From NCBI GenBank assembly GCA_051942245.1, contig JAVECL010000014.1, positions 1-64,000 of the forward strand: a stretch of 64,000 nucleotides of DNA. Direction: 5' to 3'. The stretch is from Trypethelium eluteriae (lineage: Eukaryota). The notes below the pieces were generated by a model. The model had not been told where the DNA came from and did no database searches. It saw only the letters and a list, made by a program, of their open reading frames with translations. The position numbers and the translations under genes are program-made. Shown piece after piece: positions 9,445 to 52,144 of this stretch; position 1 is the first letter of the stretch, and each line of letters begins with the position of its first letter.

Positions 9445-9468
9445 GCGGACCCTGCAGCGGACCCTGCA
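9445..9468. promoter_or_regulatory. Tandem 12-bp direct repeat (GCGGACCCTGCA x2) in the TF/transporter divergent promoter; candidate Zn2Cys6 site
   Basis: Perfect duplication seen directly, giving CGG-N9-CGG. Function is inferred. Confidence 0.35.
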
Positions 9469-9846: not shown

Positions 9847-11509
9847 ATGAACACTATCGAGCGTCTTTCAACCGATATCAAGGATCGGAAGTCGTCGGTC
9901 CAACATATCGAGACGTTTATTAACCCAGAAATTGATGCACTTGACACTATAGAAAATACTGAAGCAAGTAGATATTCTTGGTTGGTATCAATTACTGCAG
10001 GCGTTGGTGGCCTTCTCTTCGGATACGACACCGGTATCATCTCCGCGATCCTGGTCTACCTAGGAACCGACCTGGGTAAGACTCTCGACGGTAGTGAGAA
10101 AGAACTTGTTACATCCATCACGTCTGGTGGCGCATTTCTAGGTGCTGGCTTGGCCGGCCTATTCGCCGACAAGTATGGCAGGAAAATGCCAATCTTCATG
10201 GGATGTATCCTCTTCATCATTGGCGCCATAATACAGGCTTCTGCATTCTCCATTGCACAGATGACTGTTGGACGGCTTGTTGTTGGATTCGGTGTAGGTT
10301 CAGCGGCCATGGTCGTACCAGTAAGGCATTCTCCAGTCTCTACAAAAAAAGGAAATTTACTAACTCAGGCAGTTGTACATCGCCGAAGTTGCTCCTGCCA
10401 AGTATCGTGGCCGTATGATAGGTCTGGACAACATGTCGATTACGGGTGGCCAGTTAATAAGTTATGGCATCGGTGCAGCATTTGCTCATGTCAATCATGG
10501 ATGGCGATACATGGCGGGCTTAGGCGCTGTTCCGGCGATCGTCCTCTGCTGTTTGCTACCACTCTGTCCAGAATCTCCTCGACAGCTTATTTACCACAAC
10601 AAACCGCAAGAAGCAGCAATCGTGATTGCTAAAATCTTCCCCAATGGTACACAAGAACAAGTGGAACAGAAGGTGCAACACATCACTTTCCACGTCGAGC
10701 AGGTTCGAAGTCTTCATGCAGATAAGAGCATCTGGTGGCAGATCAAGCAGCTTTATGTGGTTCCCAGCAATTTTCGTGCCATGGTTTCGGCGTGCGGTCT
10801 CATGGCTATCTCTCAACTCGGAGGATTCAACAGCCTGATGTATTATTCTTCAACTCTCTTCGCCCTCGTGGGATTCAGCAACCCTGTGGCCGTAGGTACA
10901 GTCATTGCGGCGACTAATTTCATCTTCACCTGGGTCAATCTAATGCTTGTCGATCGAGTTGGACGCCGCCGCATTTTACTCAGCACGATGTGGGGTATGG
11001 TTGTCGCCTTGGTTTGTGCTGCTGTCTGCTTCCATTGGATTCCCATCAATCATGATCTCTCTCTGAAGAATAACAGCAGCGTCGGGTGGCCTGCGGACGT
11101 GGTTCTGGTCTGCATGGTATTGTATGTCGGGTTCTACTCATCGGGCATGGGTAATACAGCATGGCTATCATCAGAATTTTATCCCATGGAAGTCCGAGCG
11201 GTTGGAACCATGATGTTGACATTGACTTGCTGGGGTTCTAACATCATCGTTGCGTCGACTTTCCTCACTCAGATGGAGAATACTACGCCGTCTGGAGCGT
11301 TCGGTTTCTATGCAGGAATTTGCTTCTTTGGCTGGATCGCTGTATATTTCTGTTATCCCGAGGTAAAAGGCATGACTCTTGAAGACATCCGCCAGATCTT
11401 CCAGCACGGATTTGGGGTCAAGTATGCGAACCAACTTCAGAGGGAAGCAAAAAGGAGGCAACAAGAGGCTGTACTAGGTGAGGAATCGGGCAGAAACGAG
11501 AAAGTGTAG
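9847..11509 (+). CDS. MFS sugar porter, myo-inositol transporter (ITR)-like
   Basis: Motifs GGLLFGYDTG, DKYGRK, YIAEVAPAKYRG, PESPR, DRVGRR and YPEVKG. Intron 10321-10372. Confidence 0.92.
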
Positions 11510-25405: not shown

Positions 25406-26949
25406 ATGCCATTGATTCACGATACGCCCTCACCACCTCCATCCCTTCCCGATCCTCGTGAAGAACGCCGACGACTCCATCATGATGCAGACGTTGTGAT
25501 CGTGGGTGGGGGCATCGCTGGTTGTGCTACCGCTGTTTCGCTCTCAAATCAAGGTCGCAGTGTCATCCTCCTTGAACGGTCACTTAAGGAGCCAGACAGA
25601 ATCGTTGGTGAGCTTCTACAACCGGGTGGAGTGGCCGCTCTGGAGAAGCTAGGATTGAGCCATTGCCTTGAGGATATCGATGCGGTGAAGGTGCGCGGTT
25701 ACGATGTCATATATTATGGAACAGAAGTCAAAATTCCCTATCCCAAAGAAGCATCGAGAGTCAATCACATAGACGGTGTTGAGCAGGTAGAAGGAAAGGG
25801 AAAGGCATGTGAGCGGCCAGAGGGGAGATCCTTTCATCACGGGAGATTTGTCCAGAAATTAAGAGCAGCGGCTATGACTGCATCGAATGTGACAGTCGTC
25901 GAGACAACAGTAACTGAATTGATCAAATGTGGGCATACGGGCCAGATTTTAGGTGTCAAAAGCTCTACCAAAGGAGATGAAGATTACGTACGTTCTATGT
26001 ATCACGGAGAGTCTGGGACAGAGACTAATCGAGTACTTAGTTTTTTGGCTCCCTAACAATCGTTGCAGACGGATATGCCTCCAAGTTTCGAAAAGACAAT
26101 CTTCCTTATCACCCTACCTCAAGGTCGAAGTTCTGGGGTCTTGAATTACGCGATGCCACTCTTCCCCTCCCTCTTCATGGACACGTTCTACTCGGTGACG
26201 GAGCACCTTCTCTACTCTACCAAATCGGTACGCACGAAACTCGTGCGCTAATTGATGTTCCTGAGAATCTACCTTCGGCGTCCATTCAAAATGGCGGCGT
26301 GAAAGGACACTTGCGGAAGGTCGTACTTCCATCGCTTCCGGCATGTGTGCAACCTTCTTTCGAGGAAGCAATTGAACGGGGTCAGCTGAGATCGATGCCG
26401 AACTCTTGGCTTCCGTCCAGTATCAACAAGATGCCAGGGTTGATGATACTAGGTGACGCGATGAACATGCGGCACCCTCTCACAGGCGGAGGCATGACTG
26501 TGGCCATAAATGACGCCGTTTTGCTGGGAGAACTTCTAAGTCCTCAGCGCATACCAAAGCTCAGCGACACTGCAGCTGTGCTAGTAGCGATGCGGCAATT
26601 TCATTGGAGCCGGAAGAGTCTCACCAGTGTTGTCAACATCCTTGCTCAGGCTCTCTACTCACTCTTCGCCGCCAACGACTCTCAGTTGAAGGCCCTTCAG
26701 GTTGGATGTTTCCGATATTTTCAGCGCGGTGGTCAATGTATAGATGGCCCTGTCGGTCTGTTGGCAGGCATAATCCGTCAACCCTTTGTACTCTTCTATC
26801 ACTTCTTCGCAGTTGCCCTATATGCCATGTACTTGCACATTTCCTCCTCTAAGCCTCTAATGTGGCCGGTCAACACCATCACCAGCCTTGGAATATTCTG
26901 GAAGGCCTGCATCGTCATATTTCCGTACATATGGAGCGAGATAAGGTGA
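25406..26949 (+). CDS. ERG1: Squalene epoxidase
   Basis: VIVGGGIAG, EPDRIVGELLQPGG, GRSFHHGRF and GDAMNMRHPLTGGGMTVA. C-terminal TM region. Intron 25988-26040. Confidence 0.96.
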
Positions 26950-27098: not shown

Positions 27099-28700
27099 TC
27101 AAAGTCTCGCTTGCCATCCTCCTTCTCCCCATCGTGATCGCTCTGCCGCAGATTTTCCAGCTCTTCTCCCAAAAACACCACCTGCCGTGAGCCCGCTTCC
27201 ACCCGGATAATTTCCAAAGAACAGACCCCCAACCATCTCCCCGGCACAGTAGAGCCCTTCAATAGGCTTTCCACTGACTGCACTCTTGACTTTGGCAGTC
27301 TTGGGATCGATCGCGAGTCCACCAAATGTGAAGGTAACACCAGAACCGACTTTGACGGCCAAAAAAGGTGGCTCCTCGATTGTTAATGCCCAGTTGCTCT
27401 TTGGTAGGGTCAAACGAGTTTTCGAACTCTGCGTACCAAGACCGTCTTTGATAGTAGGGTCGAATTTTCCATTGCCGTTTTCCGCTCGATGCGCTTTGAC
27501 AGCATCATTGTACTCCTTGATAACGTTCACAAAACGTTGTTTGGCTTCCAGGCCTCTTTCACCACATTGATCTGCCAGTTCTTCCAAGCTCTCGGCCGTG
27601 ATCTTCGGAACAATTTCGTCCCTATACTCCTCGTCCCTCAACCAACCAGTCGTTTTCTTATCCCATACCTGGAATGCAATACCACCAGGTTGCTGTAGTA
27701 TTGCTCTGCCGAACTTCGCGTACGTATAATTCCTCATATCAACACCCTCGTCTACAAACCGCTCTCCCGCCGAGTTGAGCATCAAGCCCAGCGGATAGCC
27801 ACTCTTCGTGAATTCATTTGTCTTAACCCTATCGCCACTGTTCGGATCACTACTTGCATCCCACGCGACAGAATGACATCCCGACCAATTACCCTTCGAG
27901 GCAGCTTGAACATCCCTCTGTGCCGCCAGCAACATGTCGCCGGTGTTGAACGGCGTACCTCTAACGTGCGCCAAATCCCACCCCGGGCCCAAGTACTGCG
28001 CTCGTAGACTGGGACTCGCTTCGAATCCACCAGCACACATCACCACACTCTTGGCGCGAATCTCGTGCGGCTGGCCAGCCCTCATCGCCCGCACGCCCAC
28101 CACAGCGCCGCTCTTCTCATCCACCAAAAGGTTTTGCGCAGCGGTATTGAATGCGAACTTGACGCCTAATCTCCGCGCACTGGCATTCAAATTCGCAATC
28201 AGCCCCTTGCCACCTTCGCGAACGGTCAGCGCCAGGCCACCCCAGAATTTGTACCGGCCGTCCACCTCGTACGCCTGGCGCCTGAAACTGAGCTGAAAGT
28301 TCACCGCGCAGTAGTCCTTGAGCCAGCCAATGCAGTCGCGGCTCTCGTTCACAAGGACTGTGCTGAGTTCCTCGTCGCATCGGCCGCCTGTTACACGGCG
28401 CATGTCGGCCATGAAATCAGCCTCATCGTATTTAGCCAGGTCGATCTTAGATTCTAGGTCCTTGGGTAAGTTAGAGACGAGTGGTAGGAGATCGTGTAGG
28501 CCATGGTGAGCGGTACGGTAGGCGCCTGCTGTAAAGTAGCCGTTTCCGCCTGCCCAGTGCGGTGGGCACTTGTCGATGATGAGCACAGAGCGCGAGCCGT
28601 GTTGTATAGTAGCGAGAGCCGTCGACATGCCAGCGGCCCCAGAGCCGACGACAAGGACGTCCCAGGAACCTGTGAGAGGAACATCGTCTGAGTCCGCCAT
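27099..28700 (-). CDS. FAD-dependent tricarballylate dehydrogenase TcuA/CobZ-like flavoprotein, intronless, C-terminal PTS1 (ARL)
   Basis: VLVVGSGAAG, GGNGYFTAGAYR, FWGGL, GGFEA..LRAQYLGPGWDLAHVRGTPFNTGD, RFVDEGVDMRNYTYAKFG, VTFTFGGL and GEMVGGLFFGNYPGGSGLTAG closely resemble bacterial TcuA. Confidence 0.85.
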   Translation of the reverse strand: MADSDDVPLTGSWDVLVVGSGAAGMSTALATIQHGSRSVLIIDKCPPHWAGGNGYFTAGAYRTAHHGLHDLLPLVSNLPKDLESKIDLAKYDEADFMADMRRVTGGRCDEELSTVLVNESRDCIGWLKDYCAVNFQLSFRRQAYEVDGRYKFWGGLALTVREGGKGLIANLNASARRLGVKFAFNTAAQNLLVDEKSGAVVGVRAMRAGQPHEIRAKSVVMCAGGFEASPSLRAQYLGPGWDLAHVRGTPFNTGDMLLAAQRDVQAASKGNWSGCHSVAWDASSDPNSGDRVKTNEFTKSGYPLGLMLNSAGERFVDEGVDMRNYTYAKFGRAILQQPGGIAFQVWDKKTTGWLRDEEYRDEIVPKITAESLEELADQCGERGLEAKQRFVNVIKEYNDAVKAHRAENGNGKFDPTIKDGLGTQSSKTRLTLPKSNWALTIEEPPFLAVKVGSGVTFTFGGLAIDPKTAKVKSAVSGKPIEGLYCAGEMVGGLFFGNYPGGSGLTAGGVFGRRAGKSAAERSRWGEGGWQARL

Positions 28701-29348
28701 TTAGAGGAGAGGAGGAGACAAAGATTGCGTGACACGACTGAAAATGTGTACGGCTATGAAAGCTCAAGTATTGAGTATTAAGAGCTTTGAGAATTGAGCG
28801 AGGACTGGATTGATATTTAGAAATGTCGGGAGATTATGGAGAAAAATCCTGCTGGAAGAACCTCAGAGTAGATTCCACATGTGATGGAGTATCCGCGAAG
28901 CAACACAAAGGCCGACCGGCAACGGATATGCGGCCACGATGACCAGCATGCAGAGGGATCATCGGGTGAAACATGTCCGAAGACCTACAAAGATGCCTCT
29001 TACACAAATGTTCAGGGGGTCGTAACGACAGACATCCGAACTGGTGAGATCGTTGAAGATAAAATCTTAGTGGATTGCGGGGAAGCAGTGGGAAAGTTTG
29101 CCGAACTCCAGGCTCAGAAACGCAGTCCTCTAATTATTCCGTACACCATATTTTAATCTGTATTGTAACAGGTGACGGCGGCACCCAGACAGTGCGACCG
29201 CACCAAGAATATAGCATCAACAAAAACTCACTTCCAGTTGCGACGGATTATTCGAGTCCGAATGGGAACATATGGCGTTGGTCCGAGGTAAGAGCGGTAT
29301 GCAGACCTGAGAGAATCTCTATCGCAGTAGGTCGGTTACGCTACTACA

Positions 29349-30646
29349 ATGAAGGTTATTCTCAACTCACACTTGAGAGTTCTTCTTCAACTTGAAAAGT
29401 CGACCTCATTCATTCAATCTCGTCAAATCTACAGCATAACGAGACGAGTCATGCAGCAGAACAGCCTTCGAGCCGCCTACTATCGCGGCGGCACATCACG
29501 AGCAGTCATTTTCCGCCAAGAAGACCTTCCTCCAGACCGCGACGAATGGGGCCCCATATTTCGAGGTGTCATCGGTTCTCCTGATCCCAATGGACGCCAG
29601 CTTGACGGTTTAGGTGGTGGCATCTCCAGTCTATCCAAAGTCTGTGTTGTTGGGCCGCCATCGCATCAAGACGCCGAAGTCGACTATACATTCGTTGCTG
29701 TGGGCGTGAAGGACGATGAGGTGGATATGTCAGCAAACTGTGGAAATATGACTAGTGCTATTGGGCCATTCGCTATAGAGGCAGGGCTGGTATCGGCAGG
29801 GGCAAATGGCGAAAGGGTGTTGAAGATTCATAACACAAATACCGGCAAGTTAATTGAGGCGGCTTTCGCTGTGGAGGACGGCGAAGTTGTCATGAAGGGG
29901 GACTATGCGATCGATGGAGTAGCAGGAACGGCAGCGAAGATACGGTTGGCCTTCGTCAGCCCTGGGTAGGTGTTGAAGGCGTTTTTACCTTACCTCCACT
30001 CTCAAAACGATAATTCTGGGAATATTTTGACCAAGATCGGCACAGGGGCTCCAAAACGGGGAAGATTCTTCCTACGGACAGTGTGAACGACACCTTCGAC
30101 GGTCTGAAAGCAACATGCATTGACGTGGGCAACCCCTGCGTCTTCGTCCAAGCATCGGATCTGAATGTGCCTAGTAGCATACTTCCAGACGAACTTTTAG
30201 CTCATCCAACATTACTTGATCAACTCGAGACCATCAGACGCAAAGCAGCCGTGCGCATGCGGCTGGCCTCGGATGAGGCCAATGTTTCGGGCTCAATACC
30301 CAAGATTGCCATGGTATCAAGGCCTCACGCTCACAAAATCCTCTCGGGAGCAGAGTTAAGTGAAGAGAGTGCTGACCTCGTTGTGCGCGCCATCTCGGTC
30401 GGTCAACCTCATCGAGCGGTTCCAGTCACGGTAGCTCTGGCTCTAGCGGCTGCTTCAAAACTGCAGTCCTCAGTAGTATACAGAAATACTTCTCAGAATC
30501 CTGTAGATCCTGACGGAACTACCATTTGTCATAGTAGTGGTAGGTTGCTAGTGACGGCAGATGTAGATAGTAAAGGCGACGTCAAGTCAGCCACGGTTTT
30601 CCGAACGGCTCGGAGGATCATGGAAGGTACAGTCTATTGGAAATGA
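29349..30646 (+). CDS. PrpF/AcnD-accessory family (aconitate/methylaconitate isomerase-like)
   Basis: YYRGGTSRA, GSPDPNGRQLDGLGGGISSLSK, ANCGNM (catalytic Cys) and RTARRIMEG. Intron 29966-30045. Second in-frame ATG at 29451. Confidence 0.92.
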
Positions 30647-30987: not shown

Positions 30988-33354
30988 TTAGGAAGCCAGC
31001 AGAAGCGACGAAGCACGCTCCGCAACAGCGACGATGAGAGCGCTAGGATTTGTAGATCCGATGAAGGGGAAAATTGACGCGTCAACAACGTAGAGATTAT
31101 CGGTTCCATAAACCTTAGTGTTGGTATCGACAACGGAAGTACCGCCCGTAAGACCGCTATCTGTGCCCATCTTGTTGGTACCCACCCAGTGATTGGCCGT
31201 GCGACTCGTGGTGATAGGATCCGCATTGACATATTCACTGATGGTTTGGTTGGTGGATGGAACGCTAATGGTGATGTTTGGGTCAGTCTGAAGTGCCTTA
31301 ACAACTCTCTCGAGACCGGTGATGACGGCCGCTAAGTCGTCAGCATTCTGGAGGTAAGGAAGAGTTGAAGGCGTCATGTCGAGACTTGGTGTGATAGTCA
31401 GACGACCGCGTGAAACAGCACCACGTCCGAGATATTGTGAAATAGTCATAGATTTGTTCGTATCTCCCTCCACACGAGCGGTGTATTGAAGCTGGCGAGT
31501 GACCTTGTCCGCGCCGACGACTGTATCCCAGAAGATAGGCTGAATGTTAGGAGCGGACTGAGCAAGCATTCCACTACGATGTTGGATGTAATTCTGCGCG
31601 TCGGACTGTATTGGGGTATTGTATGCAGCATAGTAGTCGTAGAAGGTAACATTCGGGTGGGTAATTTGGATGTCGGTGTCTGTGTGGTCACCAAGGTTTT
31701 CGCCCACCGGTAAATTGATCCACTGCTTGCTGTTGATCATCTTTGGACCGTCAGAGCTAGCATTGACAATGGCCAGCTGGTCCGCGGGCCCGATACCGCT
31801 CCGAAATAGAATCTTGGGGCTTCCATATGTACCTGCAGAGAGAATGACACGGCCCGTATTGGCAGTGACATTAATGGTTCCACAATAGCCACCGTTGAGG
31901 AAGTTTTCAACCTCGACACCAGTAATATGGCTTCCATTCCTAATGACCCTGTTAACGGCAGTGTTCATAATGAGTTTGAAGTTCTTGCGGGCATTGGCAG
32001 TGACAAGGTAGGTGGCCATTGGACCACCTCGCTCGCCATTTGAGTACATCCAGATGCTACGGCTATAGGTCATGGTTTTCTCATTCGGCACCTGATTAGC
32101 CTCGACGTTCTTCCATCCTGCAGCACCAAGAGCACCACCAACGATGTCAAGCCCCTCCGGCATATGAAGTACGCCATCCATAGAAGGATTGTCGTTCCAC
32201 GGGATTCGAGAAAAGACTTTTTCAACGTTGGGTTTCATGTCCGTAGCTTGCCATCCCGTAGGGAAATTGTAGTTCCAATCAATATCTGGTGCATACCACC
32301 AGAGACCGGAGTTGATCGCAACACCTCCGCCAAGGACACACCCAGCCATCACACCGACGTCGGGGCAAGCGATGCCGGCAGAATCCTTCCAAATTTCATT
32401 GTCCAAACCAGGGACATCAAAACGGGTGAGGTTAGTACTGTTGAGCCAATCAGGCCTCAAAGTGCCACCCCAACGATGAGAGGATGGAGGACCCTTCTCA
32501 ATTAGGAGCACGCTGTGCCCAGCTTCCGAGAGTCTGTCAGCAAGAGGAATGCCACCAGCGCCAGCTCCGACAATGATGTAGTCGTATGTCGTACTTGGTG
32601 CCGTTTGAAAGGAACCGGCTGCGCATGCAGTCGCTGTAGCAGTTGCGGTAGTGGTCGAAGTTGGTGAAGTAGGACTTGTTGTCGGCGAAGCCGTGGGTAT
32701 TTTGGAGATGTACGAAGAGTAATTAGACAGCTGAGCACCGGCAACGGGTAGACCGTATTCACCCATGCTGTCATGCTGAATGATGGTGGCATCAGAATCA
32801 GTAACCGGAGAAGGATTGGTATCGGATTGAGCCCAGCCGAGGACTAAGGCTTGACCAGTTACGGGAAGCTGGGAACCTGCAGTACCGCCTTGATTCCAAG
32901 CCAAGCACCACTGGCATCGGTATGTGAGAGTGAAATGGGTATCGTTGATGGTGTGGGCAATCTGGGTGAGTGTCGCATTTCCAGTGTAGATATCTGGCGC
33001 AACATAGCCCGAGGCGTATCGAAATGAAGTCTGAATCTGCTGTCCATCGACCCAGGCTAGCAGTAAAAGAGAGGATGTCATAGGGCCCGCATGAGAGATA
33101 CCAGTCCATCCGGCGCCAGAGGTTCGGGCGCCTACCAAGTATCCGAGATATTCGGCTTGAGAGTCGGTTCCATTTGGTAATGCCACACCAAATTGAAATC
33201 CTCCAGCAGTCTCGGACGAGTCTACAGAGGCTCTAGAAAAGGGAATGCCAGAGCTAGGGTCGATGAAGCTGTCAATGGCAGCTTGGGCATAGGCACTGGT
33301 GGCCCAGAGGCCCACAAGAAGGGAAACATTGAGAAGTGTATTGGCTAACTTCAT
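30988..33354 (-). CDS. cdh: Cellobiose dehydrogenase (AA8 cytochrome + AA3_1 GMC domain, no CBM1), intronless
   Basis: Signal peptide; cytochrome domain with GPM and QHD heme-ligand motifs; Thr-rich linker; YDYIIVGAGAGG; catalytic ANHW and TNP motifs. Confidence 0.95.
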   Translation of the reverse strand: MKLANTLLNVSLLVGLWATSAYAQAAIDSFIDPSSGIPFSRASVDSSETAGGFQFGVALPNGTDSQAEYLGYLVGARTSGAGWTGISHAGPMTSSLLLLAWVDGQQIQTSFRYASGYVAPDIYTGNATLTQIAHTINDTHFTLTYRCQWCLAWNQGGTAGSQLPVTGQALVLGWAQSDTNPSPVTDSDATIIQHDSMGEYGLPVAGAQLSNYSSYISKIPTASPTTSPTSPTSTTTATATATACAAGSFQTAPSTTYDYIIVGAGAGGIPLADRLSEAGHSVLLIEKGPPSSHRWGGTLRPDWLNSTNLTRFDVPGLDNEIWKDSAGIACPDVGVMAGCVLGGGVAINSGLWWYAPDIDWNYNFPTGWQATDMKPNVEKVFSRIPWNDNPSMDGVLHMPEGLDIVGGALGAAGWKNVEANQVPNEKTMTYSRSIWMYSNGERGGPMATYLVTANARKNFKLIMNTAVNRVIRNGSHITGVEVENFLNGGYCGTINVTANTGRVILSAGTYGSPKILFRSGIGPADQLAIVNASSDGPKMINSKQWINLPVGENLGDHTDTDIQITHPNVTFYDYYAAYNTPIQSDAQNYIQHRSGMLAQSAPNIQPIFWDTVVGADKVTRQLQYTARVEGDTNKSMTISQYLGRGAVSRGRLTITPSLDMTPSTLPYLQNADDLAAVITGLERVVKALQTDPNITISVPSTNQTISEYVNADPITTSRTANHWVGTNKMGTDSGLTGGTSVVDTNTKVYGTDNLYVVDASIFPFIGSTNPSALIVAVAERASSLLLAS

Positions 33355-36126
33355 CTTGGAAGTTGACAAAGGGTGCTCAGCACGACCAAAAGAATGACTA
33401 GACAGGACGCCAAGACTTCTGCTATTGAAGAAAAATTGAAGGACGAAGGACTAATAAATAGGAAGAAGATAGCAAATTGCGTGGGGCAGGGAAAAAGGGA
33501 GGAGAAAGTCACCAGACCGTGATATGCAATTCCTGCCTAGTAAACATGCAGAGTGCTGACGCCTGGCCCATACCAGCAGATGAAAGGAATTGTTTTGGTC
33601 TAGACGCATGGATCAACACAAGATGCACTTGCGCCTCACGAAGAGGCTATGAATCTCCCTCCACATTGAAGGACTATGGTTGGACGAAGCGGGCCGGCGG
33701 TTGTGTCTCCATAGGTACAGGACCCTGCTTCATTGGAGGGACGTGGGGACATCCTGTACTACCTTCTTGTTTCAATAACTGGACGAATATTGCCTGCAGG
33801 CGGGCCCGAGAGATCAGTTGAAAAGAACGCATATGGCAGGGTCACATAGACACTTCGAGGGTTCAGTGATTTTGCCGCCAAGTCTGGCGAAATGAACTTT
33901 TGAGTGTCGAGGCAGCATCGGACCTATGAGAAGAGATGGCAATAACATTAAGGCCCCAAAGGCCGGGCGGGTGGGTGTGAAATAGATTAGAAGGGTAGAA
34001 GGCTCCAGCTAGGTACCTAGTACACACCCTGGTCGTCCCCAGTTTTTCCGCCGGTTGAAGCCGAATCGCTTGCACGAAACCGCACAATCAAGCTTTCGCT
34101 TACCAGATAAACAATCGATATCCTGGTTTGCGTCCTCCAGTATATGCAAAATGACCCATCAAAAAGCAGTCAAGAAGCAGGAGCATCAATACGCCGCGAC
34201 TTGTTTGAGACAGAGCTTTCTTCGTCAGCCACATCGGCATACGCCCTCGTGAAACGCGTGTCTTCAGCCGCAATGCCCCATAGACTCATCCTCGCAACAA
34301 TACGATACTCATTATCCTTTGCGACTTTCAACCGCGAGGTAGCTTTTCCTGCAATAGCGCTGTAGCATCGTTCCGCCGGTCATGAGGATGACCTCGCATT
34401 AGCGGCATTACTTGAACCAGTCAAAAGAAAACTACCTCGTCGTCTACCTAGTAAGTAATTCAATTTACTATCCGGCTAAACTGCTCTTCATTCTATCAAG
34501 CTGCTACGCTATCTGAGCCAGTTCTACCCGCAACGACAGTAATTATAGGTTTGCACGCGCCGCGGTTGCGCCCAAAAGCGTCAGATCATCAGTTCCAGAA
34601 ATCCGAGAACGCTATTCATATTCATACACAAGAGTGCGCCGTGTGCCGGATTCCGGATTGCTCGCGTCGGCTGTGGCGCCTGTAAGTATCTCCGCACCTG
34701 CTCTTCTTTTTCCAGACTGGTCCCGAGGATATACTCATTAACGGAGGTAAACACTGTTAGCCAGTGTTGCTCTTAACGGAATTCTTACTCAGACCTGTAA
34801 CATGGTGATAATTAGGCTACATCAGGGCATGACGGGCACTCTGTCCCGTCACGATTCTTATCCAGTCAAGCCTCAAGTACCTCTCTTGTGCCCAAACATT
34901 GACTGTATGGGGTCTCAAGATGTGATACTCCTGTAGATCTCTCAGCCCAATGGACGAAGGGCCTCTATCTTGCTTAGGATTGCCCAAAGAAATGGAATGT
35001 CATACTCGATGGCCGATGCGGTCTTGCAGGGTGCTAGAACAATTATGCCATGAAATCGACCCACCCCGGTTACCAGTCTGACTGCCGGCTTGCACGTGGA
35101 TCTCCTCAATAGACTGGACTCTGCAGCTCAATTGCCGCTAGCTGGTGTTAAGCTCCAAGGGCTTTTAGCCCGGCGCTGACGCTTTAACCATTATAAACAT
35201 CCATACCCGGAACCAGAGCAAGATTTTTTCTTACCGAATTGACAATAGCCCCAAAGGCCGCGACGGACTTACGTTACCCGTTCAAGGCTGGCAGTACTTC
35301 TCTTCATACATGGCCCATTAGTAAAAAGAATGAGTGAGCGACGAACACACAAATCCGTCACTTGCAGTGAGAGGCAGAGCTCTCGTGGCTCCTCTAAGCC
35401 CGCACAATGAGAGATCCAAACGATCGCTGAAATCGACATTAGATTGAAGAACCAGAATCATGGGAAAGGACGGCTCTGAGAGATATTTCCAAGGTAGCCA
35501 ACTTTTCAAAAGAAGGCCTCGAAATCACCTCGATATCATGGCGATTTGAAAGATTCGTGTTACACCAACCATGAGGAAGCGGCCCTCGATAACGACGACT
35601 TTCCTACTGGCGCAAGTGGGACATGTGATGAAGTAAATCCGTAGAACTTCAGCATAGGACTATAGAGACTCTTCACAGTACCTTGCTCTGGCCCTGATCA
35701 GTCTGACTCTGCATCTGTTCCGACGTCCTAGCGAATTCACCTCAGACGTGCGTGTGTTTTCGAAAGAGATATCCAGGAAAGTGAGACGTCGGTGTGATCC
35801 TAATAATGCCGAGTGAAAAGGGAAAAGGAACGATGACACGTAAGATCAAAAGTTTCACGCACAATTAAAGGGGCAGCACGTCATTCGATCCACCTTGTCG
35901 TTTTCTACTCTAGCAACTCTAGCACATTATCACCACATAGTCTATAGGCCTATGAACCTTGTCTCCTGGATTTGCGAAGCCAGCTCTTCAATGACACAAG
36001 CATTTAGGTGGGTACACCCAAGCAGAAAGTCACAGTCTTCCAATTCCCCTTCCTCCAGTCCCCTATTAAACAGCAATGAATGTCAACTGCTATTCTCATC
36101 ACGTATTGCTGTGTTGGTATCTTTGA

Positions 36127-37161
36127 TCACGTTGTGTCTTCTTGGTTTATTTCTCCTTCTAGTGGCGCTCTTTCACGAAGCTGCGCCTGAATTCGATCCT
36201 TCCGTTGGTACAGATTCGTCAACCGTTTTGCCTCAGCTATTTGCTTATTAAGCCTTCTTTCCTCCTCGACCAGCCCGGATATAGTACCATTTTGCAGTGC
36301 CTGTGCTTGAGATTCAAGACTGTGCTGCTCATCCTGAGATGATCGAACAGAATGCTGAATAGAATCGTCTCTGGGAGGTCGTCCAATACTGAGGATCCGA
36401 GGGACTTCGATGTCAGAACGTGGTGGTGACCCTTGTTCACACCCCTGCTTGGGATCTGCATTGGTAATGAAGGTTTGAGGCTTGTGAATGGGAAGATGCT
36501 CCTGCTTCGGTATGAATAGCTCGTCTCCTGTTCCGGATTCGTTGGCTCGACAAGTTCCGGGATCTGCCTGCTGGTGGGTACTCAATCGACACGACTAATA
36601 CGAATGGCTCTTAGGGTCTGAAACTGCGTCAGATATATGGCAGGCAGTATAAGTTGTTCCGTCAAGTTCAGGCGTTGGGACAGTTTCGCCATTCGTACTG
36701 TTCTTCTCGACTGTCTCTTCCGATTCCTTTGAATGCTGTGAGGAGGAATGTCTCCGCCAGAGGAGCCATACAACCGCACAGATCGAGCAAACAGCGGCAA
36801 CTATACCAATACTGATTCCTGTCTTTGCTCCTGGAGCAAGCGCATGAGAGCGACTTCCAGGGTTCCGAGCATTGGCACTTGCCGCTGAAGATTGTGTAGG
36901 ATTTGGTGAGCATGGCTGAGTTAGTCCCGTTGGCTCAATTAAGAGGAAGGCAGAGCCTGATGGTGACGACGATCGAGCAGTTGGGATGCTTGTCAGAGTC
37001 AACGTTCGGGAGAGAGTGACCGTCGTAGAAATTGAAGTCGTTTGCGTTGGCGGACAGTAAATATTCCCAATCGAATCTGTGGAGCAGTCTTCGTCTTGAG
37101 CTAAGACTACGCAGGAGTATACGAAGGCAACATAGATAAAGAGCAGCTTAGAGTACGCCAT
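36127..37161 (-). pseudogene. Single-pass membrane protein (signal peptide, S/T-rich region, TM helix, C-terminal coiled coil) interrupted by a TAG at 36595-36597
   Basis: MAYSKLLFIYVAFVYSCVVLA signal peptide; GAKTGISIGIVAAVCSICAVVWLLWRR TM; PELDG motif. ORF 36127-36585 continues in the same frame to LVEEERRLNKQIAEAKRL. It could also be an intact shorter gene. Confidence 0.55.
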
Positions 37162-37513
37162 GGTGGTTCTTACGGCAAGGACGCCAGAATTTTTCGACAT
37201 CGTAGAAGGGGCATATGAGCGACAGGCGCGTTTCTCTTTAAACATTAACTTGATGACGCTTTGCGGCTCACTGCATCCGACGATATGTTCAATCTTCTCA
37301 TAATGTGGATGAAATTCGCAACACCCTGTTGTTTGCTTCACAGAATTGGTGTATGACAAGCACGTACTTCAAGACACGGTTGTGCCATATCGGGCGGGTC
37401 GCTGCATTGACAGACTCTACAGGCTGTGGAATTTTGTCACTTTTGATTCAGGAAATGATTATGTAGTACTGTTGAGTCTCGTGCCTTCCATATCTAAATT
37501 GGCACCTAAACAT

Positions 37514-39430
37514 TCAGTGGTCGACCTCTGCAGGTAGCCATTTGGCGGTGGCAATCCTTGTTCGCTTTCCATAATACCACATGGGAACCGTCAACAAGGA
37601 AAAGATCCCGAGTAGCATACCAAATATTCCAAAAGGTTCGGCTGGTCCACGGTCCTGAATCCAGGAAGACACAAAGAATGTCCAAGCAAAAGAGATTATC
37701 GCCCTCAGAGTCGTAATCATTACGAAGCAATCGCCGCTCACTGCGTTGTATGCTTCGATTATCTAGCCCATCATTAGCGTCACCTTTCCAGGCAAGATAT
37801 CGGAAGCATTGGCAAGAACTTACGTAGTTAAATCCCACGCTTGGCACCTGCATTAACCCGAACGCCAGCATCCCCAATCCAAATTGCAAACCCACCCAGT
37901 TTTTTCCCCCAGGGTACTGTGCAGAGAAACCAAAAACCCACAATCCCGTCGTTGCCACAAACAAACTTGGTATCATCGTCAACAACCTCGATTCCGGCTC
38001 GGCGTAACCCCTTCCTCCCCCTCTCGCGTCCCGCGCGGCCTGCCTCTTGATCGACCAATCGGTGACAAAGTATGCATAGATTGCGCCCAATACCGTGCCA
38101 ATGATTCCTCCACTATCGATTGCACCTGCATTTTGACCCCACAGGTAAGGAGGGCCGGCAACGAGTTGCGGACCAATCGCAGAGATGGTTACGATGCCAC
38201 CCACGAGGCCGCCATATTGGAGCATTACGAGCCAGGTACCGGGATAGCGCAGCGTCAGCACAGGGCCAAGAAATTTACCAACAATATTGTTGCCTCTGTA
38301 GACGCCGATGCGTAGGCTGCGCTTGAAGGTGAACGGTGCATAGCTCGTACTGGATTCACCGACATAGGGCGCCTCTTCAACCCGCGACACCTGATGGTCC
38401 TTTTCGTCGACAGTGAGCGAGGTCGACGGAGACTCTACGGGCCGTGCGGTCTTTCTAGTAGTGCTGTGTTTAGAAGCCTCTTGGCGTTTTCCGTAGAGGG
38501 TTTCTGGTTGGAAGAAGAAGCAAAGGATCAAGACAGAGCCGGCGAGGATGGTATTGACCCATTGCGTCCAGCGCCAGCCACGGGTAGCGGCAATGTAAGA
38601 GCCTGTGAGAGCGCCGACGAGAGAACCTAGGGAGAGGAAGACGGTATAAATCGCCTGTAATAGTATGAGCAAGGAAAGATCGAATTCTTGAAGGAGCGAG
38701 GTACCATTGCACGACCACGCTGATGTATGAAAAAGACCTCTCCAACAACATCGGGTGCCACACAGTCAGCTGGTGCCATACCAATGCCCTGAAATATCCT
38801 TGCAACTAGCAAGCTTGTGAAGGTCTTTGCCTCGGCACACCACACCGAGCACAGTGTAAACATCAAGAGAGCGGTGAGGTTGACCGTTCTACGACCAAAG
38901 ATGTTGGCCAACGGCACCCACCATAAGTTTGAAGCACCTTGCATTAGAACATTGACCTGACATCAGTCGATTAGGTTCTAAACGCGCGTTTATTCTCCGG
39001 AGGGTCTAATACTTACAGACAGCAGATGAGTTAGGTTTGACACTGACGTTGGCTTTGGGGGGAAAGCCATGATCATGAATGGAATAGCACTGGAAAGACT
39101 CGCCGATGCAAAGTTAATGGTGAACGAATATAGTGACATGCATGCCAAAATGGCAAATTTTCGCCACAAGGGCCAATTGAGAGGGTCTGCAGGGTCGGCT
39201 GACGGTCGAGGAACGAGGACGATTCTGTCTTCTCCGGCTTCTCGTCCGGATTTCGTTCGCTCGAGCGCATGGTCTGTCAATACAGATCAGAAAGCTTAGG
39301 TCGACACGTTGAAAATAGAGTTTGCCTTTTTTGGACGGCACAGCTTACCCACGAGCTTGTCCGTGCCTGGCGGAAGAGCCTCCTTCACCTCTTCCTTTGA
39401 CAGCGAGAAGGCGTACTTGTATCCCACCAT
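37514..39430 (-). CDS. MFS transporter (HOL1/DHA1-like)
   Basis: LVPRPSADPADPLNWPLWRK, FGRR, VGEVFFIHQRG, GWRW, PETLY and EPESRL. Four introns. Confidence 0.88.
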
Positions 39431-40697
39431 AGCCTTGATGTACCCGCCAATATATATATAATGATCAATTTTCACCAGAAAAGAAGAATGCAGAAAGCTG
39501 CAGAATGTGAGATAGAAGCAGAAGGAGATGAAAATCTACCCACTTACCCGAATAGCGCTCATGCCTCAATTCTTATGGCTTACCTTTCGGAACTGGTGGA
39601 GGAAGACGCCTCAGCTCCTTTACCTTTCCTTGAAAATTCCGGGGACCCCAGATTTGGCCAGACTCGGTTGGTGCGCGCATCACTGCACTAGCTCGGCAAG
39701 GACGATATGTCATCGACCGTATCGTTGTATCTTGACCGGTGCTGTCCATTGACGATAGCCGAGTAGTCTAGATGTCGAAGGGTTTCGTGGTATACGATCA
39801 ATGCTATCAGCGAGAATTCCCCGGCTGGAATCTCATTGAATCAGCACAATTTGACCAAGGAAGATTTTCATCTGTCAGGACGTTGTTTTCTTGGAGTTCT
39901 TTCGTCTGATCCTTCAGGCTCGCTTGAATATGATTTGACAGGGTAGTCCAGGCTAGTGTTGTCCGAGTAGAATAGAGTACCGCAAAACCCTTCGGTACTC
40001 CGTCCTGCAATTATCCAAGGTCATCAGCTGAGGAAAGGTCAATCCAACAGAATTGCAGATCGCCCGCGTATGAGAGAATCTGCGGGCGTGCAAAATTTTA
40101 TCGCATGATAAATTCCGGACGCCAAAGATGAGTGACTGAAGTGGCAGCTTCGAATTCCTGGGTGACCGGCGTGAGGGTTGACGTCTTTGCCGACTCAAGA
40201 TGCCGGACTTCGAGGCACGCTTATCGTACCACTCGCCAGTGCCTTTGAACGGAGTACGGTGTACAGCTGCCTTAAAGTATGGTCTCGCTGTATCGCCGCA
40301 AGACTTTTTTGGGTCTCATCTGCTACCGATACTCTTCGTACGATATTTTGTGGTAACCCTTCTTTGGCATAGCTCTTAATCGTGTGCCCTACACCTGCTC
40401 CGTATACCCGATTACTGGACCATTCGCTACTGACGCTTCTATGGTGCTCTCAATTGAGCTCGTATCCTATACTAGTCTATAGAAACGGGTGTGGTTATCA
40501 ACCTCGATGAGATTGATATACACCGTTGTCTTGCACTAGAGGAATCCTTCGGCGAACGTACCGAGAGGCTAACTGTATGACTCAGATGAAGTCCCGCTTG
40601 GAGACGCGAAGTCCACCGCAAGTAATTTCGACATTTTGTTAACATCTTGGAAGGCACCTCAAAGCCGACTCAACCCCATCCGGCCACGGGCTTTATC

Positions 40698-41608
40698 ATG
40701 ACTGAAATCTTCAAACAATCGGAAGCATGTTGTAAAAACCCTCCCATAACCTCCAACAAGTACGAGCCAAAAGGCGAATTCATCATTCATAACAATACGA
40801 AAATGTGTATGTATTCATGGTCGTCAGTCCCTGTTCAACGTCCTAAGTGTACCTCTTTTCGCTTTGCGCTTGTTCAAATCACAAAAGAACGTATAGCAAC
40901 CAAGTATAAGTCATCTCATATTTAACACCAGATATCTCTGGTCCCCGCACCTCAACCCATGCCCTCCTAATTCTCTATGATATCTTTGGTTATTACCCGC
41001 AGACACTCCGCGGTGCCGATATACTCGCTTCCTCCGCCTACCTCACCATCATGCCTGATTTCTTCGATGGCCACCCTGCAGAGTATTCATGGTATCCCCC
41101 TAGCAGCCCCGAAAAGGAGGAGAATCTTAATACCTTCCTCGCTGGCCCGGCTGACACCCAAAAGACGCTTACTCGTCTGTGGTCTCTGAAAGCCTCCTTG
41201 GAACTCCTATTTCCCTCAATCTCATCTTGGGCCCTTCTGGGATATTGCTGGGGCGGCTACGTCGCCTTCCACGCTACCTCCAGATCTGACAAGCCCTTTG
41301 CGACGTGCGTACATCTGCACCCGGGCTTTCCATCCGCGGAGGTGGCAGCCAAGATATCGGTGCCAATGCTCGTGCTGAACTCGAGAGATGAGATTGACGA
41401 AGAGGAGAGGCTGCCGTTTGAGGAGGCATTGGGGCGGGAGGTTGGAAATGGGAAGGATATTAAGGAGAAGAGTCAAATTTTGACGTTCGAGGAGATGGAG
41501 CATGGCTGGATGAGCGCGCGGGCCAATTTGGAGGATCACAGCGTGAGGCAAGGGTACGAGCGGGGGTATGAGATTGTTAAGGAATGGTTGCGCGAGCACT
41601 TTACCTGA
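40698..41608 (+). CDS. Dienelactone hydrolase family protein
   Basis: SEACCKNPP, YDIFG, MPDFF, the GYCWGG nucleophile motif and HGW. One intron at about 40807-40931. Confidence 0.88.
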
Positions 41609-42835
41609 GCGTGTCCTAAGCGGCTGTACATAATCTATAGTGAGCACAGCCACAGCTCCTACTTTTGGTACCATCATTCTGAAAAATAGATGACCAATGA
41701 TTGGAATGAGTCCGAAAGAATTCCGGCCGACTCGGTGTGAAGAATGAGCCTATTGATAATACTTTCCATACTGCAGCTCAGGAAGGGGTTTCGTGTTTGA
41801 CAGCGGAGCTCTCGAGGATGACCACATGCATCATCAAGCAGCGTTTCCGAGCTCGAGAAAATAGCTTACCAAAGTGCTCTATGTGGATTTTATTGCATGA
41901 ACCCGCATACATTTGCTTCCCCACGCCAAAAGAAAAAAGAAGCCCAGCCCTTTTCTGCTTTTTGCGTCATTGATGTGCTTATGTGAAGATCTTTGGGAGA
42001 TTCATCTTGGTCCTCTGCCCTTTTGTAGTACTACCAGTCCAGATATGTCCATATATCGTACGCACATGCCGTCAAAAGCTTTAATACCCGCTCACAAAAT
42101 CTCAGGCTCGTCTTGCTCCTGGTGCCCCTGCCCATAGGTCGAGTTGGATAGTGGTTTGAACCTCGGCATCGTTACTTCGAGATTGATGATTCTTAAGTCG
42201 CTGACCGTCTGACCACTGGGAAAACTATACCGTAGTCGATAGCCATAATAACGGAAGACGACTAGAGGTCCTTCAACAATGCCGGATGAGTGGAGGAGGG
42301 GTTCCTCCGCTTATGCCGACCTTGTAAATACCTGATTCAGCATGCCCATACTCCGTACATGAGTACAATCTTCTCATGCGATTGCAATGCAGCGATATGC
42401 TTCACCTCGGTCAGCTACTTTACACTCATTTGAGAATTCGATCCCAGAATGAGCAGTTTGTGATGCATGATGTTCATTTTACGCAGCTGATTCCGATCGG
42501 AGGTGCAACGTATCTAATGCGCAACACGGTTACCTTCGGGCATATGAGCGGCCAAAGAAAGGCTTATGCCTCAAGTCTTGGATCAATAATGAGGAGTCCG
42601 TTGAACGACAAAATCATACCGAAGAGGGTATTATCGCCTCTGATCATGATCCGTAGAAGAATTCTGGAGTAGTTGACAGTGGAAGGACAATGTTACGCTA
42701 AGCTAGCCCGAGGTAAGTTTAGCGGAGACACGGTAAGGTGGAAGCTGAACGCAAGTGGGCGAGCCAATCCTCGACATCATCATCTCTCTGTTGTTGACCT
42801 CTACCCTCGCTTCCTTCTCTTGTCTCCTATGCAAT

Positions 42836-44252
42836 ATGATATTAGGCCAGATCTCGTATTTGGATTGTCTCGTTTTTATTGCTCTTCTCTTCCCGCAGCT
42901 GCTATTGCGTGTAGGATTTTGGAAATCGCTACAGGTTGCAATCAAAGCGTCACCATTTCTTGGTACGTGTCTTGGTGTCACTCCTCAACCAGCTCCAGAC
43001 TCATATTTAGCTATGAAGCAATTCTACTTCCAACCAAGTTCATACATGAGAGATTTCTCATCTCGAAAGATCGACAAACACCGTTTGTTCAGCAAGCTTC
43101 TCCCTTTCAGGATTTTGTGATTAGATGCGTTCGCTACGCATTCGCGAACATACCTGCAACAGTGGGCAAAGTCTTCTTCTCCAAAGAAGTTGCACTTCCA
43201 TTCTTCTACTTCCGCCTGCTTCGTCATAGGTACATGCAGTCGTCAGTCCCTTGGCGGGAGGTTAATCGAGTTTGTGGCATGGAAGCGTTTGTCTTCCTCC
43301 ACTTTGCTAATTTTGACGCAGGAAGGTGTCAAGGGGCTTTGGGTGACTATCGACGAATCTCGGCAACCGGATGTCGTCATTTACTATTGTCATGGTGCGT
43401 TCATACATTGTCAATGTTCAGGTCGCCGGCGAGGGCTCACACTCGGCAGGCGGCGGCTTTTCAATGGGCTCAAGTTATTTCTACATCGAATTTCTTCTTG
43501 CTTGGGTGGCACTCCTCAAGAAATCGGGACTTCATAATCCGGCTCTATTTGCCCTGGAATATTCACTAGCTCCGGATGCTGTGTATCCGACTCAGCTGCA
43601 GCAAACTCTAGCCGGTTATAATTACGTCCTTTCGCGAGTGGAAAACTCGTCACAAATCTGCGTTGGTGGAGACTCTGCTGGCGCTACACTTATCCTCGGC
43701 ATGCTGTTACAAAAATCTATGGATCCTAATGAGCGTCGCAATTTTCCCGGACTAGGCATACTAATATCGCCCTGGGTGACGCTGGTTTCTGTGAAAAATC
43801 GGAATACTCCAAGTGACTATCTCGATGCAGATAGCTTGCATCTTTACGGGAACCAATACGCCGGACCTATGGGCTCACTAGACGATCCGCTGGTCTCACC
43901 AGGAAAATGCAAAGACGTTGAATGGTGGAGAAGAGCAAGCCCCTTGCACGGATGGTCTTTTCTGTTCGGAACCGAAGAAGTCTTTGCACCCGAGACTAGA
44001 GATCTTATTCGACTACTAAAGAAAGCAAACGTGGATCTCAGTGTTCACGAGGAAAAGGGCTCAATTCATGCATGGCCTGTAGCGAGTCTATTTCTTGGGC
44101 GGAACCGGGATGAGAGACAGCACGGGCTTCGTAACATCGTCAAGGTCATCACGCAGACAGTTGGTCACGAGATCAAGGGCAACCAGAACGGCACTGCAAA
44201 CAAACTTCCGGCACCGCTCAAAGAAAAAGCCAGCAAGGCCACACGCGAATAG
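42836..44252 (+). CDS. Alpha/beta hydrolase, HSL-like (Say1/Mug180-like) with an N-terminal TM region
   Basis: MILGQISYLDCLVF; spliced HG|GGF oxyanion motif; GDSAG; HAW. Three introns. Confidence 0.85.
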
Positions 44253-47200: not shown

Positions 47201-47390
47201 CTCCATAGTTGTACAATTATCAACAAAGCCTTCCTCTCATGTGGATTTGCAGAGCGCCAACCTTATTCCCTGACTTTGAATGTAACGACATGAACACGAA
47301 TATCCAGATTCCTCATACCGTTAAGGTAAAAAGAGAAGATTGTAATACATTTGAACGCTTTCCCTCCACACAAAAGTCCCCAAGATTACC

Positions 47391-52134: not shown

Positions 52135-52144
52135 ATGGCGTGAT
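52135..52144 (-). promoter_or_regulatory. CYS3/MetR-like bZIP site ATCACGCCAT upstream of sfnG
   Basis: The + strand reads ATGGCGTGAT, about 570 bp upstream of the ATG. It resembles the Neurospora CYS3 consensus ATGRYRYCAT. Confidence 0.55.

What the first reader, a model, noticed from the sequence alone, without database searches (positions are those of the whole stretch)
27099..30646. Head-to-head TcuA-like dehydrogenase and PrpF-family isomerase: candidate fungal tricarballylate/trans-aconitate module
Seen: divergent genes sharing a 648-bp spacer with several (T/G)CCGA half-sites. Known: Salmonella TcuA oxidises tricarballylate to cis-aconitate. PrpF-family enzymes isomerise (methyl)aconitate, for example Ustilago Adi1 between cis and trans forms. 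Trans-aconitate is a plant aconitase inhibitor, and tricarballylate is a side chain of fumonisin/AAL toxins. Inferred: both enzymes converge on aconitate, giving a detoxification or assimilation route (or the reverse reaction) that I do not know to be described in fungi. No TcuB electron partner or TcuC transporter is in the window.
Basis: partly seen in the sequence, partly recalled or inferred. Interest (0 to 1): 0.75.

Follow-up and report, generated by a model that had tools for sequence, protein, structure and literature searches.

The report
Fungal peroxisomal flavoprotein and mitochondrial isomerase
Two neighbouring genes of a lichen-type fungus encode a probably peroxisomal flavin enzyme and a probably mitochondrial double-bond isomerase whose bacterial relatives often occur together in organic-acid breakdown clusters, so they may be two steps of an uncharacterised pathway, but the substrate is unknown and the genes are not neighbours in most other fungi checked.

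Summary
Both genes are real, intact and head-to-head across 648 bp; the (T/G)CCGA sites are barely above chance. Gene A is not a true TcuA. It fails the stricter TcuA model, is 30-36% identical to tcuB-linked TcuA with different substrate-pocket motifs, and belongs to a TcuB-less sister subfamily (41-49% to bacteria). It ends in a peroxisomal signal (75 of 199 close homologues; 0 of 82 bacterial). Gene B is a PrpF-family isomerase with a mitochondrial-type presequence. The pair is adjacent in Trypethelium subeluteriae but unlinked in 16 other fungal genomes holding both genes. In bacteria the same two subfamilies co-occur (two order-wide samples) and are sometimes adjacent, once head-to-head, usually with a hydratase and an isocitrate-lyase-family lyase. 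This genome has such a hydratase-family/lyase pair on another contig. Best reading (0.45): two steps of a CoA-free dehydrogenate-isomerise-hydrate-cleave route for a branched succinate or tricarboxylate, split between peroxisome and mitochondrion. Tricarballylate/aconitate itself 0.2; independent neighbours 0.27. The scan noted the bacterial module, the peroxisomal tag and fungal PrpF clusters before on other DNA. My paper searches found no description in fungi.

The parts
27099..28700 (-). Gene A: intronless 533-aa FAD-dependent oxidoreductase of the fumarate-reductase/ketosteroid-dehydrogenase fold; TcuB-less sister subfamily of TcuA (P0001)
   Evidence: ORF; PF00890; NF006130 470>369 but TIGR02485 221<373; AlphaFold model pLDDT 92, best structural matches 1qo8 Z 40.4, rmsd 3.9, 447 aligned and 6t86 Z 39.8, rmsd 2.5, 436 aligned; single copy in the genome
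27102..27110 (-). C-terminal Ala-Arg-Leu, a type 1 peroxisomal targeting signal (consensus recalled)
   Evidence: Strict [SAC][KRH][LM] end in 75 of 199 close homologues, 111 of 199 with a looser pattern, 0 of 120 PrpF homologues, 0 of 82 bacterial subfamily members; localisation not tested
28701..29348 (.). 648-bp divergent spacer with six (T/G)CCGA copies at 28911, 28976, 29035, 29100, 29257, 29282; no convincing regulatory element
   Evidence: 6 against 2.5 expected, p about 0.03; 5.7% of same-size stretches reach 6; only chance-level repeats
29349..29450 (+). Gene B: 34-codon N-terminal extension with mitochondrial-presequence composition (4 Arg, 2 Lys, 1 acidic)
   Evidence: 90 of 115 fungal-type homologues have a 12-60-aa extension; 87 of the 90 are net basic with at most one acidic residue; Asp+Glu 0.6% against 11% in the mature part; no targeting predictor was available
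29349..29965 (+). Gene B exon 1 of the PrpF-family Delta-isomerase (405 aa, P0121); holds Lys97 and Cys131, equivalent to catalytic Lys73 and Cys107 of Shewanella PrpF
   Evidence: PF04303; alignments to 2pvz and the K73E mutant 5k87; residue roles from PMC5690661
29966..30045 (+). 80-nt GT..AG intron of gene B
   Evidence: Splicing here gives P0121 exactly
30046..30646 (+). Gene B exon 2
   Evidence: PF04303 positions 168-369; only PrpF gene found in the genome
25406..26949 (+). Left flank: squalene epoxidase (ERG1), convergent with gene A; not part of the module
   Evidence: PF08491, E 4.7e-97
30988..33354 (-). Right flank: cellobiose dehydrogenase, convergent with gene B; not part of the module
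   Evidence: PF16010, PF00732, PF05199

Best explanation
Genes A and B are cognate steps of an uncharacterised, CoA-independent route for a branched succinate or tricarboxylate that is probably not, or not only, tricarballylate (candidates: methyl-tricarballylate, 2,3-dimethylsuccinate, methylsuccinate, less likely a sulfonated analogue). Step 1 (fold shown, chemistry inferred): the flavoprotein removes two hydrogens from the C2-C3 bond, probably with Tyr327 and His276, in the peroxisome, where oxygen could reoxidise FAD in place of TcuB (inferred). Step 2 (family and catalytic residues shown, location and substrate inferred): the free unsaturated acid reaches the mitochondrion and the PrpF enzyme moves the double bond to the isomer that a hydratase accepts. 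Steps 3-4 (inferred): aconitase or a PrpD-family enzyme adds water and an isocitrate-lyase-family enzyme cleaves the product; a PrpD-family/lyase pair lies on contig C994. The head-to-head layout is local to Trypethelium; the functional link rests on bacterial genomes, not on fungal synteny.
For: The two subfamilies co-occur in bacteria. Order of G001, centre left out: both 5, isomerase only 3, flavoprotein only 7, neither 135 of 150; Fisher p 6.6e-5. Order of G157, centre left out: 7 of 8 isomerase-bearing genomes have the flavoprotein against 9 of 112 others. PrpF lies within 7 kb in 6 of the 80 closest GTDB flavoprotein loci. Bosea lathyri has the same head-to-head layout, with PrpD and a lyase, and its isomerase and that of Paracoccus pantotrophus (also near the flavoprotein) fall in the group nearest the fungal clade (SH-aLRT 95). 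Of the three best plasmid PrpF matches, two lie 3 and 9 kb from the flavoprotein. A lyase is next to the close isomerase in 6 of 9 fetched loci and LeuC or AcnA in 4 of 9, which points to a product that needs its own cleavage. The genome has a PrpD-family gene beside a lyase 40-43% identical to the bacterial module lyases. The best solved match of gene B is methylitaconate isomerase. Pocket motifs differ from TcuA.
Against: Unlinked in 16 of 16 other fungal genomes with both genes (12 Aspergillus, 4 Helotiales, so only two independent lineages) and no PrpF in the flanks of 3 fungal metagenome loci (one has only 1.1 kb upstream). Bathelium and Bogoriella have gene A at 84-86% but gave no isomerase among the best 120 hits. 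The two proteins appear to go to different organelles. In bacteria most flavoproteins have no PrpF nearby (74 of 80; 76 of 76 metagenome loci), and in the second order only 1 of 10 isomerase matches is adjacent. The bacterial sisters of gene A (Nonomuraea and unnamed proteins) differ from those of gene B, and the Nonomuraea locus has no PrpF (tblastn), so one operon transfer is not indicated. No expression or activity data.
Confidence: 0.45

Rival explanations
1. Independent neighbours. Gene B is a stand-alone mitochondrial (methyl)aconitate isomerase that recovers trans-aconitate or a dead-end methylaconitate for aconitase. Gene A is a peroxisomal oxidoreductase of another pathway. Adjacency in Trypethelium is a chance rearrangement.
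For: No linkage in 16 other fungal genomes or 3 metagenome loci, where gene A sits among housekeeping genes; different targeting signals; spacer motif marginal; close bacterial isomerases also occur with AcnA and tricarboxylate transporters and no flavoprotein (Rhodococcus; L202); PrpF-family TarA, TbrA and Adi1 are aconitate isomerases.
Against: Each gene is single-copy in a 29-Mb genome, so chance adjacency of two subfamilies that pair in bacteria is unlikely on its face; co-occurrence in two bacterial orders.
Confidence: 0.27
2. One reading: gene A oxidises tricarballylate to aconitate and gene B isomerises trans- to cis-aconitate, both feeding mitochondrial aconitase.
For: Passes NF006130; His276, Tyr327, Tyr498 are shared with tcuB-linked TcuA; canonical tcuAB is often near a PrpF gene (9 of 25) and in Shinella near acnA and a PrpF 43% identical to gene B; tripartite tricarboxylate transporters are common neighbours; a mitochondrial isomerase fits delivery to aconitase.
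Against: Fails TIGR02485, which a tcuB-linked control passes with 516 bits; 30-36% identity and different motifs at six pocket-lining stretches; Schinkia azotoformans carries both a canonical tcuAB and this subfamily side by side, which suggests different substrates; the PrpF genes beside tcuAB in the order sample are a different subfamily (34-39% to gene B); a dedicated lyase would not be needed if the end product were isocitrate.
Confidence: 0.2
3. Gene A runs as a soluble reductase (as Osm1 or urocanate reductase do), reducing an unsaturated acid that gene B supplies in the right geometry, for detoxification, redox balance or a lichen metabolite.
For: Closest solved structures are reductases; no TcuB acceptor in the genome.
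Against: The arginine of the fumarate-reductase TRD motif aligns with Tyr327, and the His-His and Arg substrate-binding positions are Thr456-Phe457 and Tyr498, as in TcuA; bacterial neighbours are importers, hydratases and lyases, and once ETF; no biosynthetic backbone gene is adjacent.
Confidence: 0.08

Closest known systems
Salmonella tcuRABC tricarballylate utilisation (TcuA; Lewis and Escalante-Semerena 2006, seen only as a title in a reference list; plasmid R27 copy L090)
   Same: Same flavoprotein superfamily, shared His276, Tyr327, Tyr498; passes the broad NF006130 model
   Different: 30-36% identity, different pocket motifs, below TIGR02485, no TcuB, TcuC or TcuR, peroxisomal tag
PrpF-family aconitate Delta-isomerases: Ustilago Adi1 (PMC4720413), Bacillus TarA and TbrA (PMC11495376), Shewanella PrpF (PMC5690661)
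   Same: Pfam PrpF fold; Lys and Cys catalytic pair kept
   Different: Adi1 is cytosolic and biosynthetic, closest to oxalomesaconate tautomerase by its paper's table; gene B has a presequence and is below both NCBIfam equivalog cut-offs; not compared directly with Adi1, TarA or TbrA
Eubacterium barkeri nicotinate fermentation end module: methylitaconate isomerase Mii, dimethylmaleate hydratase, dimethylmalate lyase (Mii activity from PMC4720413; rest recalled)
   Same: Mii (3g7k) is the best solved match of gene B (E 2e-68); bacterial relatives sit with LeuC-type hydratase and lyase in the same order of chemistry
   Different: No methyleneglutarate mutase; entry would be by a flavin dehydrogenase; fungal and compartmented
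Uncharacterised bacterial TcuB-less flavoprotein / PrpF / PrpD or LeuCD / lyase modules (Bosea lathyri L157, Hydrogenophaga L174, Paracoccus L086, L175)
   Same: Same two subfamilies; Bosea has the same head-to-head layout
   Different: Fungal genes are usually unlinked and have gained organelle signals; no substrate is known for either

Membership tests
TcuA tricarballylate dehydrogenase (strict) | NCBIfam NF006130 above cut-off | tested here: met
   470.1 > 369; but the model also passes all 5 TcuB-less bacterial proteins tested
TcuA tricarballylate dehydrogenase (strict) | TIGR02485 above cut-off | tested here: not met
   220.9 < 372.55; tcuB-linked control 515.9; TcuB-less relatives 230-280
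TcuA tricarballylate dehydrogenase (strict) | TcuB Fe-S partner encoded | tested here: not met
   No match in the genome (may be incomplete); 0 of 76 metagenome loci, 55 with at least 1 kb downstream; 1 of 80 GTDB loci, belonging to a separate canonical tcuA; 0 of 5 whole bacterial genomes over the cut-off
TcuA tricarballylate dehydrogenase (strict) | Pocket motifs of tcuB-linked proteins (TR[NHD], RTNxF, R[LV]D[CS]V, WPKRYA, TFTYL, GYxAG) | tested here: not met
   Present in 7 of 7 tcuB-linked proteins; replaced by FTAGA, RQA..FWGG, KSGY, RNYTYA, TFTFGG, NYPGG in the 5 fungal proteins and closely similar forms in 4 of 5 TcuB-less bacterial ones; that these stretches line the pocket is inferred from alignment to 1qo8
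TcuA tricarballylate dehydrogenase (strict) | Oxidises tricarballylate to cis-aconitate | not testable with these tools
   Needs an assay
FAD_binding_2 fumarate reductase / ketosteroid dehydrogenase superfamily | Pfam PF00890 and two-domain fold | tested here: met
   140 bits > 20.4; Z 40.4, rmsd 3.9, 447 aligned to 1qo8
PrpF family (PF04303) | Profile match and catalytic Lys/Cys | tested here: met
   180 and 140 bits for the two exons; Lys97 and Cys131
2-methylaconitate isomerase PrpF equivalog / 4-oxalomesaconate tautomerase equivalog | TIGR02334 or NF033377 above cut-off | tested here: not met
   246.5 < 440.55 and 295.2 < 440
Aconitate Delta-isomerase (Adi1, TarA, TbrA) | Orthology to a tested enzyme and cis/trans aconitate activity | not tested
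   Those sequences were not among my hits; activity needs an assay
Conserved fungal gene cluster | Linkage kept across lineages | tested here: not met
   Adjacent in T. subeluteriae only; unlinked in 16 of 16 other genomes from two lineages
Peroxisomal matrix protein (PTS1) / mitochondrial matrix protein | Import shown by localisation | not testable with these tools
   Sequence signals only

The most novel reading that the evidence does not exclude
Filamentous ascomycetes share an undescribed, bacterially derived, two-organelle catabolic pathway that starts with an oxygen-using peroxisomal member of the fumarate-reductase superfamily and acts on an unrecognised natural acid, possibly a sulfonated succinate analogue (bacterial relatives sit with phosphosulfolactate-synthase-like genes, sulfonate-type ABC importers, chromate- or TauE-type exporters and a CysB regulator). 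It would also supply the missing native aconitate isomerase of aspergilli.
Probability: 0.15. Interest if true: 0.75.

Novelty: new variant of a known kind. Interest (0 to 1): 0.45.

Why it matters
Both genes are widespread in filamentous ascomycetes and are labelled 'CobZ', 'tricarballylate dehydrogenase' or 'DUF453' in databases without any test that I could find. This work says the TcuA label is probably wrong in the strict sense, assigns likely organelles, and names A. nidulans AN6133 and AN5387 as ready handles. [quoted passage not shown] A peroxisomal, TcuB-independent dehydrogenase of this fold would be a new way to couple this chemistry to oxygen.

Tried and rejected
Spacer motif as a Zn2Cys6 site: marginal; repeats at chance level; a recalled MetR-type sulfur motif had 0 matches in the window. 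Downstream ATG 29451 as the only start: rejected because P0121 and P0122 start 34 codons upstream and most homologues carry an extension; a second, cytosolic form from 29451 is not excluded. Conserved fungal cluster: rejected on accession, locus-tag and contig evidence; a contig-length comparison of 218 flavoprotein and 141 isomerase records matched only Trypethelium-group records (informative only where one genome is in both lists). Single operon transfer: not indicated, since the bacterial sisters differ; the flavoprotein tree was FastTree, rooted on two canonical TcuA, with long-branch warnings, and an outgroup-rooted tree could not be run. RNA evidence: no RNA holder listed. ESM Atlas gave only automatic TcuA, CobZ and PrpF names. 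No solved structure of this flavoprotein subfamily or of TcuA appeared (best 26-27% identity). Aconitase copies in the genome were not counted. No complex prediction was sent because binding is not claimed. Paper searches gave no characterisation of either fungal gene; AN6133 appears only as a neighbour of sltB. The library lacks most subscription journals and I opened no supplements, where expression data for AN6133 or AN5387 may exist.
Full report
Observation. Gene A is an intronless 533-codon ORF at 27099-28700 on the minus strand. Gene B begins at 29349, has an 80-nt GT..AG intron at 29966-30045 and ends at 30646; the spliced protein equals the database model P0121 at all 405 residues. They flank a 648-bp spacer and lie between squalene epoxidase and cellobiose dehydrogenase. 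The closest named homologues are from Trypetheliaceae lichen fungi. Each gene is single-copy in the assembly. The spacer has six (T/G)CCGA copies against 2.5 expected, but 5.7% of equal stretches of the window do as well; I do not count this as a regulatory finding.

Gene A is not a strict TcuA. It passes NF006130 (470 against 369) and fails TIGR02485 (221 against 373). Identity is 30-36% to seven tcuB-linked proteins and 41-46% to five TcuB-less ones in the same alignment (up to 49%). His276, Tyr327 and Tyr498 are shared by all 17 rows, but six stretches that map near the substrate site of flavocytochrome c3 differ between the groups. The AlphaFold model (pLDDT 92) has the fumarate-reductase/ketosteroid-dehydrogenase fold, with no solved relative above 27%. 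TcuB is missing from the genome, from 76 of 76 bacterial metagenome loci and from 79 of 80 GTDB loci; the exception belongs to a second, canonical tcuA. The role of TcuB as electron shuttle is recalled. In a FastTree tree of 213 rows, 27 fungal proteins from several classes form one group (99) inside the TcuB-less subfamily when rooted on two canonical TcuA; the rooting is assumed.

Targeting signals. Gene A ends in -ARL. A strict PTS1 pattern ends 75 of 199 close homologues (111 with a looser pattern), 0 of 120 PrpF homologues and 0 of 82 bacterial subfamily members. I treated all 199 as fungal from their identity and named neighbours; many are unnamed. Gene B has a 34-residue basic extension; after setting aside 5 bacterial-looking rows, 90 of 115 homologues have a 12-60-residue extension and 87 of these are net basic and almost free of acidic residues. 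So A is probably peroxisomal and B probably mitochondrial. Both are inferences from sequence. I saw the PTS1, before reading that earlier scan notes had seen it in other fungi.

Gene B is a PrpF-family isomerase with Lys97 and Cys131 at the positions of catalytic Lys73 and Cys107. It is below both equivalog cut-offs. Its best solved match is methylitaconate isomerase (E 2e-68), then Shewanella PrpF. Tested family members isomerise aconitate (Adi1, cytosolic, passages of PMC4720413; TarA and TbrA, passages of PMC11495376) or methylaconitate (passages of PMC5690661).

Is the pair conserved in fungi? In T. subeluteriae the genes carry consecutive numbers (Q9165_000280 and 000281). Elsewhere they are unlinked. 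A. nidulans has AN6133 and AN5387; eleven more Aspergillus genomes and four Helotiales genomes have both genes on different contigs or hundreds to thousands of accessions apart. These 16 represent two lineages, and unseen paralogues cannot be excluded. Three fungal metagenome loci show housekeeping neighbours and no PrpF. Bathelium and Bogoriella have gene A at 84-86% but no isomerase among the best 120 of 7280 hits.

Is the pairing meaningful? Bacteria say it may be. Six of the 80 closest flavoprotein loci have a PrpF gene within 7 kb. Bosea lathyri has the head-to-head layout, with PrpD, chromate-type exporters and a lyase. In a 43-row tree the fungal isomerases (100) group with the Bosea and Paracoccus pantotrophus enzymes and five unnamed ones (SH-aLRT 95); P. 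pantotrophus has PrpF, PrpD, exporters, a lyase and three related flavoproteins within 15 kb. Hydrogenophaga has flavoprotein, LeuCD and PrpF in one run behind a CysB-type regulator. In 150 genomes drawn from the order of G001, the close subfamilies co-occur in 5, with 3 and 7 alone (p 6.6e-5; thresholds set at score gaps after viewing); two of the five are adjacent. In 120 genomes from the order of G157, 7 of 8 isomerase-bearing genomes have the flavoprotein against 9 of 112 others, but only 1 of 10 isomerase matches is adjacent (no test run). Large catabolic genomes and kinship inflate these figures. Against one shared transfer, the nearest named bacterial relative of gene A is from Nonomuraea, with an aldehyde dehydrogenase and no PrpF.

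Substrate. A lyase of the isocitrate-lyase family is next to the close isomerase in 6 of 9 fetched loci, and LeuC or AcnA in 4. That is the chemistry of dehydrogenation, double-bond shift, hydration and cleavage, and it suggests an end product other than isocitrate. The window's genome has a PrpD-family gene converging on such a lyase on contig C994, 40-43% identical to the bacterial ones and cut by the contig end; both families have several paralogues here, so this is suggestive only. Some bacterial loci add sulfur clues: phosphosulfolactate-synthase-like genes (L086, L120, L124), sulfonate-type importers (L086, L088, L120) and exporters. A SAR11 paper notes prpD/prpF and phosphosulfolactate synthase beside tricarboxylate transporters, without tests (one passage of PMC11796062). 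A PrpD-family protein acts on methylsuccinate in Pseudomonas (passages of PMC9875883). The wording 'substituted succinate, no CoA' follows earlier scan notes, which are not independent evidence; the counts above are my own.

How it most likely works. Shown: two intact genes, their folds, catalytic residues, targeting-like ends, no TcuB, and bacterial association. Inferred: peroxisomal oxidation of a branched succinate or tricarboxylate with oxygen as acceptor, transfer of the free unsaturated acid to the mitochondrion, isomerisation, then hydration and cleavage (0.45).

Novelty. Ten searches (listings and abstract starts) found no study of either fungal gene; AN6133 is mentioned only as a neighbour of sltB (one passage of PMC4557415), and PMC13755589 says no native aconitate isomerase is known in A. 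niger (passages). The TcuA paper was seen only as a cited title. The library is incomplete and no supplements were opened. The enzymes are new variants of known kinds, the pair is not a conserved cluster, and the pathway is a testable hypothesis. Interest 0.45.

Noticed in passing
G000:C994 (L193) 5561-7009(+) and 7054-7830(-): A MmgE/PrpD-family gene converges on an isocitrate-lyase/PEP-mutase-family lyase (KRCGH motif) cut by the contig end; the lyase is 40-43% identical to lyases of the bacterial modules. The genome has five PrpD-family loci in all.
   Followed up: partly
window 25406-26949; P0016: The Chaenotheca homologue of gene A is named 'Squalene epoxidase' by its source, and squalene epoxidase is gene A's neighbour here: either a mislabel or a hint of older synteny.
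   Followed up: no
L157 (Bosea lathyri) 3694-10169; L175; L086; L120; L124: Bacterial flavoprotein/PrpF/PrpD/lyase modules with chromate-type exporters, sulfonate-type ABC importers or phosphosulfolactate-synthase-like genes, suggesting an unknown sulfonated substrate.
   Followed up: partly
L203-L208, L178: Canonical tcuAB often lies beside a PrpF-family gene in alphaproteobacteria (9 of 25 distant TcuA matches within 12 kb); I found no paper on it in my searches.
   Followed up: partly
L135 (Schinkia azotoformans) 3251-8488: Canonical tcuAB and a TcuB-less paralogue in one locus, with a TRAP transporter and an isocitrate/isopropylmalate-type dehydrogenase: a good system to separate the two substrates.
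   Followed up: partly
P0150, P0246: Helotiales gene models fuse a GH76 domain (PF03663) to the PrpF isomerase; probably merged neighbours.
   Followed up: no
window 29451: A second in-frame ATG just after the presequence could give a cytosolic form of the isomerase.
   Followed up: no
window 1-2000: Very AT-rich stretch (GC 0.21) at the contig start, possibly a decayed repeat.
   Followed up: no
window 30988-48575: Lignocellulose-type genes in a lichen-type fungus: cellobiose dehydrogenase, dienelactone hydrolase, AA9 monooxygenase, and a cutinase at 62909.
   Followed up: no
window 50072-58463: Luciferase-like monooxygenase, zinc-binding dehydrogenase and acyl-CoA-dehydrogenase-like genes, noted by the scan as a sulfone-scavenging cluster; 20 kb from the pair, no link shown.
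   Followed up: no
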